A stretch of 64,000 bases of DNA from an uncultured Candidatus Saccharibacteria bacterium (GTDB lineage: Bacteria; Patescibacteriota; Minisyncoccia; Phycocordibacterales; UBA9973), in NCBI GenBank assembly GCA_964502615.1, contig CAZCXF010000003.1, positions 8,962 through 72,961 on the forward strand, written 5' to 3'. Below the pieces are notes generated by a model that searched no databases, was not told the origin of the DNA, and saw only the letters and a list, made by a program, of their open reading frames with translations. Below, piece by piece: positions 56,945 to 64,000 of the stretch. Position numbers and translations under genes: made by a program. Each line of letters opens with the position of its first letter. Within the stretch, counting starts at the first letter, position 1.

Positions 56945-57400
56945 ATGAAAAAGTTATTAGTAATTTTAGCCGCAATTCCTTTCTTAACAAGCTGCACCAA
57001 AGAAAGCACGGACGAGTTCCTCCAAAACACCAACGTAACCTTCGGTTTTCAAATCGCTGGTGTTCCTGTCGTTCTGAGTTTTGGTAATGGAGCCACCGGG
57101 CTTTATTATCCCCAGTCCGGATATGGTTCTTATGTTTACGGAGGAAATTCAACTAACATGACAGCATGTTATGTTGTAAGTTCTCCTGCGAGCTCAGAAT
57201 CAGTACCCGTTTTTGACCGGACAGGTTTATCTATCGGAACAGTACGGTGTGACCAAGGGGTTGGATCAAATACAAATCAAATTTTTCTTTCTTTGAAAAA
57301 CTGGTTCGTACAACATCCAAACACTCCATGCATTGTTCTGGTTCGTTGGGATCCAAGACCGTTTACAACCGGGCGTTGGGAAGGAACAATCGTTGGTTAA
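56945..57400 (+). CDS. lipoprotein of unknown function, compositionally foreign (elevated GC)
   Basis: Lipobox LTSC after signal peptide; GC clearly above flanks; followed by hairpin + T9. Confidence 0.4.
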   Translation: MKKLLVILAAIPFLTSCTKESTDEFLQNTNVTFGFQIAGVPVVLSFGNGATGLYYPQSGYGSYVYGGNSTNMTACYVVSSPASSESVPVFDRTGLSIGTVRCDQGVGSNTNQIFLSLKNWFVQHPNTPCIVLVRWDPRPFTTGRWEGTIVG

Positions 57401-60826: not shown

Positions 60827-61552
60827 ATGAAAAAGAAACAGTTAATCAGAACCCCATGGATAGGGGCAATTATCCTTATTTCAGTTGCAGCTCTGGTTAG
60901 CTGCAGTAAATCTGACGTAATTCAGCCGAAACAACCCGTAAAAACAGACACCATTCCCGTGGTAAAGTATGCCGCATCTTTCACAAGCAATCCGGTATTG
61001 AACCCGGATACGCTTTATGCAAGGACTGCCGGTGTAATGTCGTGGGTTTCAGCTCACGCAACTAGTACCTCGATTAACATAGGTACTCTTGCCGAAAGCA
61101 AAAATTCCGCTACAATTCCACCACAGGAAACATCAACCAGCGCCACAATCACCCTTACAGGTGAAGATGGAACAATTACTCCTAAGACAGTTCCTGTTCC
61201 GGTGTATGACACGGTATTCAGTTTCATCTGTAAGAATAGCCCGGTATGGCACACAGATTCCCTTATAAAAACATGGGCTGGTGGACATACAGTCCTTCCC
61301 CCGGATCCTCTGCCAAACTGGATATACTACAGAGACCGTACTGCAAGAGCTTTAAGAGCTGATGGTACATTGTCAAATCCAGGTACATGGTATCACCTTA
61401 ATGATGGTGCCCAATACGGAGATGGCCAGTGGATATGGAACAACGTTTTTATCGGACTGAAAGAGGTTACCCCAAATAACTGGAAATACCAGTGGATAAG
61501 GGTGCATGTGGAGGGTATCTATACCTACACCGCATACGCTACTCATCAGTAG
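60827..61552 (+). CDS. lipoprotein of unknown function, compositionally foreign (elevated GC)
   Basis: Signal peptide with lipobox LVSC; higher GC than flanks; own terminator. Confidence 0.4.
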   Translation: MKKKQLIRTPWIGAIILISVAALVSCSKSDVIQPKQPVKTDTIPVVKYAASFTSNPVLNPDTLYARTAGVMSWVSAHATSTSINIGTLAESKNSATIPPQETSTSATITLTGEDGTITPKTVPVPVYDTVFSFICKNSPVWHTDSLIKTWAGGHTVLPPDPLPNWIYYRDRTARALRADGTLSNPGTWYHLNDGAQYGDGQWIWNNVFIGLKEVTPNNWKYQWIRVHVEGIYTYTAYATHQ

Positions 61553-61595
61553 CCCCTCAAGTTTTCTTTCATTTTTTCATGGCTATACTTTAAGC

Positions 61596-61630
61596 CGGAT
61601 TCCTTTTTGGGAATCCGGTCTTTTTATTTT
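61596..61630 (+). terminator. rho-independent terminator
   Basis: ccggattcc-tttttg-ggaatccgg hairpin followed by T5. Confidence 0.7.
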
Positions 61631-61710: not shown

Positions 61711-63006
61711 ATGAATATATTTAAATTTTCGCTTAGTAGTTTTTTTGTTTTATTATCTCTCTTTTCATTTCAACTAGCAGGAGCTGCTACTGCACCTGTA
61801 GTAACTAAAAATAACTCAGCAGATAACCTAGGTGTTATTGTTGCAAATGTAAACATTAAAAATGCAAAAATTGTTTTCCAAGATGGTAAGAATTTTAAAA
61901 TATCATTTACTATATCAAACGGTGAAGGACTACAAACAGGAGTTAAATACGGCTTAAAACTTTTCTCAGATGACAAGAGCCAATCTCTAGTTGATGAAAA
62001 GATATATGATGACTCACTAACTCTAGGTGAGAATAGTTCTGTATCAAAAGAGATAACTTACACACCACCTTCTATTTTAGATGGCAGTTACACAATCCTC
62101 CTAGAAAGTAAAAATCAAAGTAATTTCCCTTTTAGTTCTTTCATTGTTGGTAAAATAAAACTAACAGCTTCTGTGAAATGGTTAGAAATTATTCCTGAAT
62201 CATGCTACACACAAATACAAGAAGATAAGACAAATAAACACCACCTCATAACAGAAATTGTTGAAATCAATGAGACTGATTCTCTATCTTTAAATTGTAC
62301 TGTTATAAACAATTCTACTAATACAGTTACAGCAACACCTATTTTTAATACTAGGTACTCTGGATCTTATGGTGAATACGCTCCACAATCTGGTGGAAGT
62401 GAAGATGCCATTACATTTGCAAAAGGAGAAAAGAAAAATATATCAATGTTGCTTCCAAGAGGTGATATTCCAAAGCCTTACAACGTAAAAGTAAATCTAA
62501 TGGATGGAGAAAACTATTCAAACACTATTTCAGTTGGCTACATAATAAAAGGAATGAGTGCAACTATTCAAAAAGTTTCACTAGATAAAGATTTTTATAA
62601 AGCAGGAGAAAATGCAGAAGTTTCATTCGTTTGGTTTGGTGCAGGTTTTTATGAAAAAACACCAAAAGTTACAGTAAATGCTTCACTTACAAATAGTAGA
62701 GGTTGGCAGTGTGCAAGTTCTGTGACACAAGACGTAGTTAAAGAAAAAAATGAACCAGTAAATAAAATATCAATACCCATAAAAAATACTTGTGATGATC
62801 CACATATTAAAATTTCAATAAGTGATGCTGGTGGTACTGTACTAGACCAGAAAGAATTTACATTTAAAACTAATAAAGCCAAGAATAAAACTACAAGCAT
62901 TGTTAACAACAAATATGTGATAGGTTCGATAATAGTATTTGTTTTGATAGCAATATTTGGTCTTTATATGAATAGGAAAAAGAAAATTAATAGTGTTAAA
63001 ATGTAA
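61711..63006 (+). CDS. surface protein with signal peptide and C-terminal TM anchor plus basic tail
   Basis: N-terminal signal; C-terminal IGSIIVFVLIAIFGLYM NRKKK membrane anchor. Confidence 0.35.
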   Translation: MNIFKFSLSSFFVLLSLFSFQLAGAATAPVVTKNNSADNLGVIVANVNIKNAKIVFQDGKNFKISFTISNGEGLQTGVKYGLKLFSDDKSQSLVDEKIYDDSLTLGENSSVSKEITYTPPSILDGSYTILLESKNQSNFPFSSFIVGKIKLTASVKWLEIIPESCYTQIQEDKTNKHHLITEIVEINETDSLSLNCTVINNSTNTVTATPIFNTRYSGSYGEYAPQSGGSEDAITFAKGEKKNISMLLPRGDIPKPYNVKVNLMDGENYSNTISVGYIIKGMSATIQKVSLDKDFYKAGENAEVSFVWFGAGFYEKTPKVTVNASLTNSRGWQCASSVTQDVVKEKNEPVNKISIPIKNTCDDPHIKISISDAGGTVLDQKEFTFKTNKAKNKTTSIVNNKYVIGSIIVFVLIAIFGLYMNRKKKINSVKM

Positions 63007-63018
63007 TCTATAAAAATT

Positions 63019-64000
63019 ATGAAAAACATTCTTAAAAATACAAAATATATAGGTTTCGCAATAGTATTGTTAATAACACTATTTAGTTACTCTAAAGCTT
63101 CAGCTACATCTTATGTTACTAACTGCGTATTTGGTGGAAATATAGCGACAGAGGCAACTCTCAACCCTGGTGGACCTTTCTCTACTAGCACAACTCCATT
63201 TGATGCTCAAGGTAGACTTGAGACAAATGGTTGCTTAACAAATCACGTATCTTTAGTTGTTGAGCACAATGGAACACCAGTAACATTAATACCGGCAACA
63301 ACAGTTCTGCCTGCAAATAGTGGACCATATCCGACAGGACTTCCTGCTTTTACAACATTCTCATCACAAACTACTCCTGCAACATATCCAGTTACATTTA
63401 CAACAGGCTTTGATGAAGTAGATGATTTGCCTACTCCTTGTGTCATAACACTAACATTCTCAGGAACGTTTAGATGGGGTAAGATTCTTTACTCAGGCCC
63501 TGCATCTCACCCACAAATAGATGTATATGTACAACTCACAGGAACTGGTGCCAACCCAACACCTCTTGCTCCTAGAATACGCCACTTTATAGTCCCAGCA
63601 AATACTACTAACGACAGTCGCTATGAAAATATAAATGGTTTCAATTGTAATCAACAATATAATGGCTGTGAGATAGAAAACCCATGGGGATTCTGGGCAG
63701 GACATATATCTTCTAACTCACCAATAACTACATATGGTGGAGGATCTATATGTGGGGCAACAGGAAATACTACATATGGTGGAGGATTTGCACACTGCTT
63801 CATTGCTGATACAAAAGTTGCTATGGCAGACGGAACAGAGAAAAATATCCAAGATGTAAAACTAGGAGATGTTTTGAAAGGTGAACTTGGTAACAATAAA
63901 GTTATTGGATTCCACAGACCAGAATTGGGTAATGAAAAACTATATTCATTCAATGGAGGCAGACACTTTGTTACTGCAGAGCACCCATTCTATACAACAG
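63019..64000 (+). CDS. secreted protein with Hint (intein/hedgehog-like, bacterial intein-like) domain; truncated by window end
   Basis: ATG at 63019 with signal peptide; open frame to window end (translated by hand, no stops). From nt ~63796: CFIADTKVAMADGTEKNIQDVKLGDVL...TAEHPF matches the N-terminal splicing block of Hint domains. Not in the ORF track because the ORF runs off the window. Confidence 0.55.
   Translation, partial: MKNILKNTKYIGFAIVLLITLFSYSKASATSYVTNCVFGGNIATEATLNPGGPFSTSTTPFDAQGRLETNGCLTNHVSLVVEHNGTPVTLIPATTVLPANSGPYPTGLPAFTTFSSQTTPATYPVTFTTGFDEVDDLPTPCVITLTFSGTFRWGKILYSGPASHPQIDVYVQLTGTGANPTPLAPRIRHFIVPANTTNDSRYENINGFNCNQQYNGCEIENPWGFWAGHISSNSPITTYGGGSICGATGNTTYGGGFAHCFIADTKVAMADGTEKNIQDVKLGDVLKGELGNNKVIGFHRPELGNEKLYSFNGGRHFVTAEHPFYTT

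What the first reader, a model, noticed from the sequence alone, without database searches (positions are those of the whole stretch)
61711..64000. Secreted protein with Hint (intein-like) autoprocessing domain, preceded by a membrane-anchored surface protein; cut off by window end
Hand translation from ATG 63019 gives a signal peptide, ~250 aa Thr/Pro-rich region, then CFIADTKVAMADGTEKNIQDVKLGDVLKG...TAEHPF. This is the canonical N-terminal block (Cys nucleophile, TxxH) of Hint domains found in bacterial intein-like (BIL) modules and in polymorphic toxin/surface proteins. There the domain cleaves or ligates the flanking polypeptide. Whatever lies C-terminal (beyond 64000) could be a released toxin or effector. 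The upstream 431-aa anchored protein may be a partner or immunity-like gene.
Basis: seen in the sequence. Interest (0 to 1): 0.6.

Follow-up and report, generated by a model that had tools for sequence, protein, structure and literature searches.

The report
Self-cleaving surface protein with anchored partner
The window ends inside a secreted protein of an uncultured Paceibacteria (CPR) bacterium that carries a complete intein-like self-cutting (Hint/BIL) domain followed by a small cysteine-rich tail, not a toxin; it belongs to a large, barely described subfamily with an almost invariant lysine right after the domain, and it works together with the membrane-anchored protein encoded just upstream.

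Summary
The ORF from 63019 has a signal peptide, a 230-aa Thr/Gly/Pro-rich domain, then Cys260-FIADTKV…TAEHPF. An identical contig (0 mismatches over 3174 nt) completes the protein at 479 aa. The Hint domain is 140 aa (Cys260–Asn399) and ends …DGYLVHN. Then come Lys400 and an 80-aa tail with 8 Cys.

The toxin reading is not supported:
- The tail has no toxin domain.
- There is no small immunity gene.
- The locus sits in conserved synteny between nusA and tuf.

The closest sequences and folds are BIL domains (Tetrahymena BUBL BIL2, Clostridium thermocellum BIL).

The upstream 431-aa protein is three β-sandwiches plus a TM anchor. It is a partner, not an immunity protein: at least 11 relatives encode both proteins as one fused polypeptide.

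New points about the subfamily (864 clusters at E≤1e-30):
- The +1 residue is Lys in 235 of 253 domains.
- CPR members have HNKxxC plus Cys-rich tails.
- Cys parity of the two flanks is coupled (p≈3e-21), which suggests a disulfide spanning the Hint.

Most likely function: autoprocessing at both junctions. Possibly Lys400's amine joins the flanks. This is inferred, not shown.

Verdict: new variant of a known kind; moderate interest.

The parts
60827..61552 (+). 241-aa predicted lipoprotein (lipobox LVSC). First gene of the conserved four-gene surface cluster, on its own transcript.
   Evidence: ORF. No Pfam hit. Homologue at the same position in Paceibacteria MAG JBGAUR01 (46% id) and in CAZGOI01 (29% id).
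61594..61629 (+). Intrinsic-terminator-like hairpin (GCCGGATTCC-TTTTT-GGGAATCCGGT plus a T-run). It separates the 241-aa gene from the 431/Hint/545 genes.
   Evidence: L001 3823-3848; window = L001 + 57771. Sequence seen. No terminator-like site lies between the next three genes.
61711..63006 (+). 431-aa membrane-anchored surface protein. Signal peptide (residues 1-26), three FnIII/macroglobulin-like β-sandwich domains (about 46-151, 158-279, 284-384), TM helix 400-423 (nt 62908-62979), then a basic tail RKKKINSVKM. Partner of the Hint protein.
   Evidence: AF2 model with mean pLDDT 80. Foldseek hits only to FnIII/MG/RbmA-type β-sandwich arrays. No Pfam family. Homologue adjacent to Hint genes in at least 8 of the CPR loci examined. 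Fused to a Hint protein in P0020, 23, 25, 27, 28, 31, 33, 67, 76, 77, 80.
63004..63018 (+). Junction between the two genes: TAA stop plus 4 codons. The two ORFs are in the same reading frame. In fused relatives this position is a short basic cytoplasmic loop between two TM segments.
   Evidence: Coordinates ((63019-61711)/3 = 436). Alignment of fusions.
63019..63105 (+). Signal peptide of the Hint protein (residues 1-29, …SKASA|TSY).
   Evidence: It corresponds to the second TM segment, ending A-x-A, in the fused relatives.
63106..63795 (+). N-terminal flank ('N-extein'), residues 30-259. β-rich with 6 Cys. The first half is a confident β-sandwich in the homologue model.
   Evidence: AF2 of P0005: residues 30-135 have pLDDT about 80-94, the rest is lower. 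Homologous only in a subset of the family.
63796..64000 (+). First 68 residues of the 140-aa Hint/BIL domain. Cys260 is the block A nucleophile (nt 63796-63798). T319-x-x-H322 is block B (nt 63973-63984). The rest (to Asn399), Lys400 and the 80-aa 8-Cys tail lie beyond the window (L001:6445-6687).
   Evidence: Fold match to BIL2 and Cth BIL.

Best explanation
The window ends inside a Sec-exported surface protein of a Paceibacteria (CPR/Patescibacteria) bacterium. Its layout is signal peptide, 230-aa β-rich N-flank, 140-aa bacterial-intein-like (BIL, A-type-like) Hint domain, Lys400, then an 80-aa 8-cysteine tail.

The Hint domain is an autoprocessing module. The proposed steps are all inferred from conserved residues, not observed:
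1. Cys260 makes an N→S acyl shift that turns the His259-Cys260 peptide bond into a thioester. Thr319 and His322 assist.
2. Asn399, assisted by His398, cyclises and cuts the Asn399-Lys400 bond.
3. There is no Cys/Ser/Thr at +1, so the thioester is resolved either by water or by an amine. Water gives plain cleavage. The amine is most plausibly that of the nearly invariant Lys400, which would join the N-flank to the Cys-rich tail and discard the Hint domain.

Either way the mature product is a processed surface protein, not a released toxin.

It acts together with the 431-aa, TM-anchored, three-β-sandwich protein encoded 12 nt upstream, and probably with the 545-aa secreted repeat protein downstream. 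The three genes look like one operon. In many relatives the first two are a single polypeptide joined by a TM hairpin.
For: Shown:
- Complete Hint domain with blocks A, B, F and G (C260; T319/H322; D-x-H-T-Y-Y-A-D-G-x-L-V-H398-N399). These are invariant or nearly so in 65 aligned homologues, while the flanks vary.
- Pfam Vint above its cutoff.
- Best PDB sequence hits: BIL2 of the T. thermophila BUBL1 locus (E 3e-5) and Cth BIL.
- Best fold hits, using the AF2 model of homologue P0005, whose Hint has pLDDT >90: BIL2 (E 3e-10, TM 0.77), Cth BIL 2lwy (1e-7) and gp41-1 intein.
- Domain length of 140 aa is inside the BIL range of 130-155 (PMC9185962).
- +1 is Lys in 98 of 101 single-Hint relatives and in 235 of 253 Hint C-termini overall. 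Never Cys, and Ser/Thr once each.
- The Hint domain contains only one Cys, Cys1 (87/87).
- Cys-count parity of the N-flank and tail is coupled: 49 even/even, 35 odd/odd, 3 mixed (Fisher p=3e-21). There are about 15 different odd/odd combinations.
- In odd/odd proteins one Cys sits 7-13 residues before Cys1. In the eight 9-Cys tails I aligned, the extra Cys lies at the far end of the tail.
- The 8-Cys tail is a conserved module. It is seen only after Hint domains in the sequence held here (13/13).
- Partner link: the 241/431/Hint/545 cluster lies between nusA and tuf in the window strain and in MAG JBGAUR01. The same four genes are adjacent in CAZGOI01, whose wider flanks I did not check. There are 11 fusion proteins. 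One fusion was verified as a continuous ORF in code 11 (L026).
- No terminator-like site within the three-gene block.

Precedent from the literature:
- BILs cleave at the N end, the C end or both, and can splice without a +1 nucleophile (PMC7664689, PMC7765530, PMC9185962).
- BIL2 forms a Lys-ε-amine isopeptide with the N-extein C-terminus (PMC8616854, section 2.4).
Against: - No biochemical data exist for any member of this subfamily. Which bonds break and whether the flanks are joined is pure inference.
- The window protein itself is even/even (6+8 Cys), so the cross-Hint disulfide argument does not apply to it directly.
- 23 of 253 related Hint domains sit within 8 residues of the protein's C-terminus, ending …HNK, HNKK or HNKP. 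There Asn cyclisation would release almost nothing. The core function of the subfamily may therefore be N-terminal cleavage or transfer only, with Lys+1 playing a structural or catalytic role rather than acting as a nucleophile.
- The tail is poorly modelled (pLDDT <50), so its fold and its contacts with the N-flank are unknown.
- The parity statistic is not corrected for relatedness of the sequences.
Confidence: 0.65

Rival explanations
1. Polymorphic-toxin reading. A pre-toxin HINT domain releases the C-terminal region as a toxin or effector, and a neighbouring gene gives immunity.
For: - Secreted protein in which the Hint lies immediately before a variable C-terminal region.
- C-terminal His-Asn is invariant, so C-terminal cleavage is chemically plausible.
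- Weak PT-HINT similarity: E 0.0021 here, and up to 26 bits in relative P0012.
- Tails differ between otherwise orthologous proteins, for example the window protein versus P0002/3/6.
- BIL domains are known in MafB/CdiA-type toxins (PMC4436062).
Against: - The tail is only 80 aa, has 8 Cys and is Pro-rich, with no toxin-family hit in Pfam or NCBIfam.
- The tails of 10 proteins chosen for their 8-Cys tails align as one module with shared Cys spacing, so within this tail class they are not a set of unrelated toxin domains.
- PT-HINT is below its cutoff (18.8 bits against 27.7).
- No small downstream ORF. The next gene is a conserved 545-aa secreted repeat protein.
- No Rhs, filamentous or other trafficking region.
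- The locus lies in conserved synteny beside nusA, tuf and the S10 operon in a 53%-identical genome.
- Coupled Cys parity suggests the tail stays attached to the N-flank.
Confidence: 0.08
2. Hedgehog-like transfer. Only the N-terminal junction matters. The thioester at His259 is attacked by an external nucleophile, such as a lipid, a cell-wall amine or a lysine of the anchored 431-aa partner. The N-flank thus becomes covalently attached to the cell surface. The Hint plus 8-Cys tail acts as a disposable 'Hog-like' unit whose tail recruits the acceptor.
For: - The order signal peptide / cargo / Hint / about 70-80-aa accessory tail mirrors the Hedgehog order of Hedge domain / Hint / sterol-recognition region (PMC7765530).
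- The tail is found only behind Hint domains.
- Many subfamily members have the Hint at the extreme C-terminus, where only N-junction chemistry is possible.
- Tight genetic coupling, including fusion, to a membrane-anchored Ig-like protein with two nearly invariant lysines, K97 and K113.
- BIL2 transfers its N-extein to lysines of other proteins (PMC8616854).
Against: - His398-Asn399 is invariant (253 of 256 end in HN). Hog domains lack this, and it has no role in a pure N-junction mechanism.
- The Pfam Hint (Hedgehog) model scores only 13 bits.
- No acceptor has been identified.
- Coupled Cys parity points to an N-flank-to-tail link rather than disposal of the tail.
Confidence: 0.17
3. A canonical (selfish) mini-intein that splices out of a conserved host protein.
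For: Blocks A, B, F and G look intein-like. The size of 140 aa is typical of mini-inteins. gp41-1 and DnaB mini-inteins are among the fold hits.
Against: - +1 is Lys, not Cys/Ser/Thr.
- The same, 60-78% identical Hint sits between unrelated N-flanks and different tails, so there is no conserved host protein or insertion site.
- The proteins are exported. Known inteins live in cytoplasmic, mostly replication and repair proteins (PMC5874633).
- No Hint-less allele of the flanks was found (low sensitivity).
Confidence: 0.03
4. The Hint domain is catalytically dead and serves only as a structural or adhesive module.
For: No activity data exist. Extracellular oxidising conditions could block Cys1.
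Against: Every catalytic position (C1, T, H, H-N) is invariant across more than 100 diverged proteins, while surface positions and flanks vary. The Hint contains no other Cys that could tie up Cys1.
Confidence: 0.05

Closest known systems
A-type bacterial intein-like (BIL) domains (Amitai et al. 2003; Dassa et al. 2004; Clostridium thermocellum BIL, PDB 2lwy, Aranko et al. 2013)
   Same: - Hint fold of 130-155 aa with a Cys1 nucleophile, TxxH and a conserved C-terminal His-Asn.
- No obligatory Cys/Ser/Thr at +1.
- Located in variable regions of secreted, non-conserved bacterial proteins.
- Fold hit to 2lwy at E 1e-7, TM 0.78.
   Different: - Here +1 is not merely 'any residue'. It is Lys in about 93% of domains.
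- CPR members add a fixed HNKxxC and an 8-Cys (or larger) tail.
- Cys parity is coupled across the domain.
- There is a genetic link, including fusion, to an anchored Ig-like protein.
- No profile of A-type BILs was available, so membership at profile level is untested.
BIL2 of the Tetrahymena thermophila BUBL1 polyubiquitin-like locus (PDB 6Y75/6TMM)
   Same: - Best sequence match (E 3e-5) and best fold match (E 3e-10) in the PDB.
- Same block structure and C-terminal H-N.
- It resolves its thioester with a lysine ε-amine to form an isopeptide (PMC8616854). That is the chemistry suggested here by the invariant Lys+1.
   Different: - BIL2 is eukaryotic and intracellular. It is flanked by ubiquitin-like domains, and its acceptor lysine lies inside ubl5 or other substrates.
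- Here the flanks are exported β-sandwich and Cys-rich modules, and the candidate lysine is the +1 residue.
- Identity is only about 25%.
Pre-toxin HINT (PT-HINT, PF07591) of polymorphic toxin systems; BIL in Neisseria MafB
   Same: A secreted protein with a Hint placed just before a variable C-terminal region, and weak profile similarity.
   Different: - Below the Pfam cutoff.
- No toxin domain and no immunity gene.
- No Rhs, CdiA or MafB N-terminal region.
- Stable syntenic core-genome location.
Hedgehog/Hog autoprocessing domains
   Same: The order signal peptide / cargo / Hint / short accessory C-terminal region; thioester chemistry at the N-junction.
   Different: Hog domains lack the terminal His-Asn and use a sterol acceptor. 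The Pfam Hint model scores 13 bits. The tail here is a disulfide-rich module, not a sterol-recognition region.
C-type BIL domains of predatory bacteria (Dori-Bachash et al. 2009)
   Same: Relatives at 43-46% identity occur in Bdellovibrionales/Oligoflexia MAGs, with the Hint at the protein's C-terminus.
   Different: C-type BILs are defined together with a PPS-1 domain (PMC9185962). Neither that paper nor its sequences were available here, so the relation is unknown.

Membership tests
HINT (Hedgehog/intein) superfamily | Significant match to a Hint-clan profile | tested here: met
   Full-length protein: Pfam Vint 28.9 bits (cutoff 27). Hom_end_hint, AXH, PT-HINT and Hint score below their cutoffs.
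HINT (Hedgehog/intein) superfamily | Hint fold | tested here: met
   AF2 model of homologue P0005: the Hint region has pLDDT >90. Foldseek gives BIL2, Cth BIL and mini-inteins at E 3e-10 to 8e-4, TM(target) 0.6-0.8. The model is of a 61%-identical homologue, not the window protein itself.
HINT (Hedgehog/intein) superfamily | Position-1 Cys/Ser nucleophile and block B T-x-x-H | tested here: met
   C260 and T319/H322 are invariant in alignments of 14 and 65 sequences.
A-type BIL domain | Conserved C-terminal His-Asn | tested here: met
   H398-N399. 253 of 256 related Hint C-termini end in HN.
A-type BIL domain | No obligatory Cys/Ser/Thr at +1 | tested here: met
   +1 = Lys400. Lys in 235 of 253; Ser and Thr once each; Cys never.
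A-type BIL domain | Sits in variable regions of non-conserved, often secreted bacterial proteins; length 130-155 aa | tested here: met
   140 aa. The same Hint lies between unrelated N-flanks of 20-700 aa and tails of 2-377 aa. N-terminal signal-peptide-like segments are visible in the proteins I read.
A-type BIL domain | Match to the A-type BIL sequence motifs or profile of Amitai et al. 2003 | not testable with these tools
   No BIL-A profile exists in Pfam or NCBIfam, and the paper is not in the library. Only indirect evidence: phmmer E 0.01 and Foldseek 1e-7 to Cth BIL 2lwy.
Canonical class 1 intein | Cys/Ser/Thr at +1 | tested here: not met
   Lys400.
Canonical class 1 intein | Inserted at a conserved site of a conserved host protein | tested here: not met
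   The flanks are non-homologous across the family.
PT-HINT / polymorphic toxin system | PF07591 above the gathering threshold | tested here: not met
   18.8 bits against 27.7.
PT-HINT / polymorphic toxin system | C-terminal toxin domain | tested here: not met
   80-aa 8-Cys tail with no family hit at E<0.1. Conserved Cys scaffold.
PT-HINT / polymorphic toxin system | Cognate small immunity gene immediately downstream | tested here: not met
   The downstream gene is a 545-aa signal-peptide protein with Ig-like repeats and acidic double-disulfide repeats (NF033662, 43.5 bits). It is conserved in synteny, and tuf follows.
Hedgehog/Hog domain | PF01079 match and absence of a terminal His-Asn; sterol or adduct recognition region | tested here: not met
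   PF01079 scores 13.1 bits against 29.7. HN is present.
BUBL-type BIL (isopeptide-forming) | Flanked by ubiquitin-like domains | tested here: not met
   The flanks are a β-sandwich N-domain and a Cys-rich tail.
BUBL-type BIL (isopeptide-forming) | Thioester resolved by a lysine ε-amine | not testable with these tools
   Needs protein chemistry. Only the conserved Lys+1 and the structural kinship point that way.

The most novel reading that the evidence does not exclude
This Hint subfamily may be a natural 'amine-directed' splicing or ligation module. The nearly invariant Lys at +1 would replace the Cys/Ser/Thr of inteins as the acyl acceptor. Two outcomes are possible:
- The Hint excises itself from exported proteins and leaves the N-flank joined to the Cys-rich tail through Lys400. 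The bond would be an isopeptide, or a peptide bond after Asn cyclisation. In many members a disulfide would pre-tether the two flanks across the domain.
- Alternatively, the thioester is passed in trans to a lysine of the co-encoded, often fused, membrane-anchored Ig-like protein. That would give CPR bacteria a sortase-independent, ATP-independent way to build covalently linked surface structures.
Probability: 0.22. Interest if true: 0.8.

Novelty: new variant of a known kind. Interest (0 to 1): 0.5.

Why it matters
Hint/BIL domains are the natural source of protein-ligation chemistry used widely in biotechnology. Yet the biological role of bacterial intein-like domains in secreted proteins is still largely unknown.

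This locus gives access to a large subfamily: 864 clusters at E≤1e-30. It is common in CPR/Patescibacteria and is also found in Alphaproteobacteria, Bacteroidota and Bdellovibrionales. Three regularities are testable:
- an almost invariant +1 lysine;
- a dedicated 8-Cys tail with coupled cysteine parity across the domain;
- a recurrent gene fusion to an anchored Ig-like protein.

If the lysine is the acyl acceptor, this would be the first bacterial, extracellular counterpart of the isopeptide-forming BIL2 of Tetrahymena, and a new splicing class. It would also say something about how ultra-small episymbiotic bacteria assemble their surface.

If it only cleaves, this is an ordinary BIL-type maturation step, and the finding is routine annotation.

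Tried and rejected
1. Toxin/immunity reading: rejected. See the rival explanations and the membership rows.
2. Search for a second Hint copy or a tail-like module elsewhere in the 64-kb window: none found (tblastn).
Homologue P0005 was used instead.
4. Database search with the tail profile alone, to see whether the 8-Cys module exists without a Hint: only one identical fragment was returned from 25 candidates. This is uninformative because of the word pre-filter. A local hmmsearch of all ORFs in the held loci found the tail only after Hint domains.
5. Pfam and NCBIfam on the 241-aa, 431-aa and 151-aa neighbours: nothing above cutoff.
6. Fold search of the 431-aa model: only generic FnIII/MG/Ig arrays, with no enzyme or pilin-specific match.
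7. Literature searches for Hint domains in Patescibacteria/CPR: no papers. The primary BUBL, A-type BIL and C-type BIL papers are not in the library. Statements about them rest on secondary descriptions (PMC8616854, PMC7664689, PMC7765530, PMC9185962).
8. Model coordinates are not exposed, so I could not measure Cys-Cys distances to test the cross-Hint disulfide.
9. Stop-codon readthrough between the 431 and Hint ORFs, which share a frame: considered and left open. In MAG JBGAUR01 the two genes are in different frames (L087 coordinates), so separate genes are a normal state.
Full report
**1. What is in the window**

Two ORFs lie head to tail on the + strand at 61711-64000.

- The first ORF (61711-63006) encodes 431 aa. 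It has an N-terminal signal peptide and a C-terminal hydrophobic helix followed by RKKKINSVKM.
- The second ORF starts at 63019 and runs off the window after 327 codons.
- Even this cut fragment hits Hint-clan profiles (Hom_end_hint E 2.4e-6, Vint 2.7e-4).

**2. Completing the protein**

The 431-aa protein is found, residue for residue, on 11 public contigs.

- One of them (JGI 3300045392, Ga0490023_001269 = L001) matches the last 3174 nt of the window with 0 mismatches. I treat it as the same strain.
- It gives a 479-aa product.
- The Hint domain is Cys260-Asn399, 140 aa, ending …LDGDHTYYADGYLVHN.
- Lys400 follows, then 79 more residues to the stop: KVGCSADGSGAPTYPQCPNGNYCLDN…FCSDDNFIHNCP. 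This tail has 8 Cys and 16% Pro.
- All four splicing blocks are present: A (Cys1), B (T-x-x-H), and F/G (D-x-H…V-H-N). Naming these blocks as intein blocks is from my knowledge of the Pietrokovski/Perler block nomenclature.
- The full-length protein passes the Pfam Vint cutoff (28.9 against 27 bits). AXH, Hom_end_hint, PT-HINT and Hint stay below theirs. No NCBIfam model fits.

**3. Fold**

The tool would not accept the off-window sequence. I therefore modelled P0005, a 469-aa homologue with 61% identity, the same architecture and the same tail type, using 65 aligned relatives.

- The Hint region has pLDDT >90.
- The first half of the N-flank is a confident β-sandwich.
- The tail is poorly modelled, with pLDDT <50.
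- Foldseek against the PDB puts these first: the BIL2 domain of the Tetrahymena thermophila BUBL1 locus (6Y75/6TMM, E 3e-10, target TM 0.77), the Clostridium thermocellum BIL domain (2LWY, 1e-7) and the gp41-1 mini-intein.
- The same two BIL structures are also the best and the seventh-best sequence matches in the PDB.

**4. Organism and neighbourhood**

The window has about 35% G+C. The region examined, from about 53.6 kb to the end, carries housekeeping genes: RNase Y, ClpP, trigger factor, pyrophosphatase and NusA. The whole window holds four tRNA genes.

- The closest species-representative genome with the same gene order is a 'Candidatus Paceibacteria' MAG (JBGAUR01). Other relatives are labelled Paceibacterota, Nomurabacteria or 'Saccharibacteria' MAGs.
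- In the window strain the order is nusA / 241-aa lipoprotein / 431-aa anchored protein / 479-aa Hint protein / 545-aa secreted protein / tuf / S10 operon.
- The same order with the same sizes (254/428/470/527 aa) occurs in JBGAUR01, where the Hint proteins are only 53-55% identical.
- CAZGOI01 also has all four genes adjacent.
- A good terminator-like hairpin follows the 241-aa gene (window 61594-61629). None lies between the next three genes, which are separated by 12 and 35 nt.
- The 545-aa protein has a signal peptide, Ig-like repeats and acidic double-disulfide repeats (NF033662 above its cutoff).

This is a stable surface-protein operon next to core genes, not a mobile toxin cassette.

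**5. The partner**

The AF2 model of the 431-aa protein (mean pLDDT 80) shows three β-sandwich domains and a TM helix at 400-423. Foldseek finds only FnIII, macroglobulin and RbmA-type arrays.

The decisive result is a Rosetta-stone fusion. P0020, P0023, P0025, P0027, P0028, P0031, P0033, P0067, P0076, P0077 and P0080 (776-922 aa) each consist of, in order:
- a 431-like ectodomain;
- its TM helix;
- a short basic loop;
- a second hydrophobic segment ending A-x-A, which is the counterpart of the Hint protein's signal peptide;
- an N-flank, a Hint domain and a Cys-rich tail.

Further points:
- P0025 and P0076 carry a different N-flank type, so the link is between the 431-like protein and the Hint module in general.
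- One fusion is a continuous ORF under code 11 in genomic DNA that I hold (L026).
- 431-like genes flank Hint genes in at least 8 of the CPR loci examined.
- In the window the two ORFs are in the same frame, separated only by TAA and four codons.

So 'partner' is supported and 'immunity' is not.

**6. The Hint subfamily**

A profile search of 1.84 billion cluster representatives finds 864 proteins at E≤1e-30 and 2705 at E≤1e-10. Pattern-based genome scanning finds three groups:
- CPR members (45-71% identity in the best matching segment).
- Relatives at 40-50% identity in Alphaproteobacteria. An example is Kiloniellaceae, with the layout signal peptide / Hint / KGGGDGGG-type Gly/Asp tails and no Cys.
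- Relatives in giant Bacteroidota proteins, Bdellovibrionales and others.

Across 225 proteins I located 256 Hint C-termini:
- 253 end in His-Asn.
- The next residue is Lys in 235 and Arg in 5. It is never Cys, and Ser and Thr occur once each.
- 23 domains lie within 8 residues of the protein's end, for example …HNK, HNKK, HNKP.
- Tandem arrays of up to five or more Hint domains exist (P0017, P0122).

In the CPR members:
- The tail begins K-x-x-C in 82 of 101.
- The 8-Cys tails of 10 chosen proteins, the window protein's among them, align as one conserved module of 63-82 aa.
- In the DNA I hold, that module occurs only behind Hint domains (13 of 13).
- The Hint itself is 60-78% identical between proteins whose flanks are unrelated.

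**7. An unexpected regularity**

The Hint domain has exactly one Cys, Cys1, in 87 of 87 complete single-Hint proteins. The numbers of Cys in the mature N-flank and in the tail have the same parity: 49 even/even, 35 odd/odd, 3 mixed (Fisher p=3e-21).

- With the larger set there are about 15 different odd/odd combinations, such as 3+9, 3+13, 5+11, 7+15 and 9+15, and only about 7 mismatches.
- In odd/odd proteins one Cys sits 7-13 residues before Cys1. In the eight 9-Cys tails aligned, the extra Cys lies at the far end of the tail.
- The simplest reading is one disulfide that ties the N-flank to the tail across the Hint domain, assuming extracellular Cys are paired and Cys1 stays free. The flanks would then stay together whatever the Hint does.
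- Caveats: the statistic is not corrected for shared ancestry, and the window protein itself is even/even (6+8).

**8. Mechanism**

*What is shown.* The domain has every residue needed for the two intein half-reactions and lacks the +1 nucleophile needed for the transesterification step.

*What is inferred.*
- (a) Cys260 forms a thioester with the carbonyl of His259.
- (b) Asn399 cyclises and frees Lys400.
- (c) The thioester is resolved by water, giving cleavage, or by an amine.

*What the literature says.*
- BILs mostly give N- and C-cleavage products (PMC7664689).
- Reviews disagree on whether A-type BILs join their flanks. PMC9185962 lists ligation alongside N- and C-cleavage. PMC7765530 says A-type BILs cleave at the C-terminus but cannot ligate.
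- The titles of Dassa 2004 and Aranko 2013 (cited in PMC7664689 and PMC7765530) speak of splicing and ligation without a flanking nucleophile. That the α-amine freed by Asn cyclisation is the acceptor there is my recollection, not something I read here.
- BIL2, the closest solved structure, uses a lysine ε-amine to make an isopeptide with the N-extein C-terminus (PMC8616854, section 2.4).

The near-invariance of Lys at +1, the conserved His-Asn, the dedicated tail and the parity coupling together make 'flanks end up joined, Hint discarded' attractive.

However, members that end at HNK show that the subfamily can work with N-junction chemistry alone. There the lysine cannot be bringing a cargo. 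I therefore commit to autoprocessing at both junctions with confidence about 0.65. Of that, joining through Lys400 carries roughly one third. I keep a Hedgehog-like transfer to an external acceptor, possibly the anchored partner, as the main rival (0.17).

**9. Comparison and novelty**

Functionally and structurally this is a BIL-type Hint domain. It meets every A-type feature I could test: His-Asn, no +1 nucleophile, variable secreted hosts, and length.

It fails defining features of the other families considered:
- canonical inteins (+1 nucleophile, conserved host);
- PT-HINT toxin systems (profile cutoff, toxin, immunity gene);
- Hog domains.

NCBI already labels some relatives 'Hint domain-containing protein', so the presence of a Hint domain is not new.

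The following appear undescribed. Two literature searches for Hint domains in Patescibacteria/CPR returned nothing, and I know of no description:
- the Lys+1 signature of a large subfamily;
- the HNKxxC plus 8-Cys tail unit in CPR;
- the parity coupling;
- the recurrent fusion or operon with an anchored three-β-sandwich protein.

I rate it a new variant of a known kind, with interest 0.5. The most novel reading not excluded is amine-directed splicing or trans-ligation for surface assembly. It has probability about 0.22 and would deserve about 0.8.

Noticed in passing
window 63004-63018 (between the 431-aa ORF and the Hint ORF): The two ORFs are in the same reading frame, separated only by a TAA stop and four codons. 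In at least 11 relatives the two proteins are one continuous polypeptide. This could be a recent fission, or it could allow occasional readthrough.
   Followed up: partly
L001:6723-8360 (gene after the Hint protein, just beyond the window end): A 545-aa secreted protein with repeated about 90-aa Ig-like modules (TW..TG…C…TYTY.I.C) and C-terminal CSDGIDND-type acidic double-disulfide repeats (NF033662, 43.5 bits). It is syntenic with the Hint gene in several CPR genomes. Similar Ig-like modules form the N-flanks of many small Hint proteins.
   Followed up: partly
P0008/P0010 N-flanks versus P0009/P0012/P0013/P0015 tails: A Cys-rich motif, SC.QF(x5-6)C(x2-4)W.(S/T)HGC.W, occurs before the Hint domain in some proteins and after it in others. 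Extracellular modules appear to be shuffled around a constant Hint.
   Followed up: no
P0017 (842 aa), P0036, P0034, P0029, P0122 (4119 aa), P0123: Proteins made of 2 to 5 or more tandem Hint domains of this subfamily, abutting directly as …HNK(x)C…. Some have phage-like neighbours or domains (weak E217 collar hit; an endosialidase-chaperone hit in P0112). This resembles the BUBL polyprotein logic.
   Followed up: no
P0004 (545 aa, 2977-bp JGI contig): Its last 294 residues are identical to residues 186-479 of the window's Hint protein. Its first about 250 residues are an unrelated, cytoplasmic-looking sequence. This is either a chimeric assembly or a recombinant N-terminal replacement.
   Followed up: no
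L001:12739-13131 (S10 ribosomal-protein operon downstream of the window): A diacylglycerol-kinase-family gene (PF01219, 130 aa) is inserted between rplB and rpsS in the ribosomal protein operon. It is also present in the related MAG (L086/L087).
   Followed up: no
window 56945-57400: A 151-aa predicted lipoprotein (MKKLLVILAAIPFLTSC…) with no family match lies between clpP and the trigger factor gene. It is conserved at 52% identity in the related Paceibacteria MAG.
   Followed up: partly
L033, L051, L052, L065 and P0203, P0206, P0210, P0214: Many non-CPR members of the subfamily end exactly at …HN, …HNK or HNK plus 1-7 residues. The conserved Asn-Lys is kept even where there is no C-terminal cargo. 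No current mechanism explains this.
   Followed up: partly
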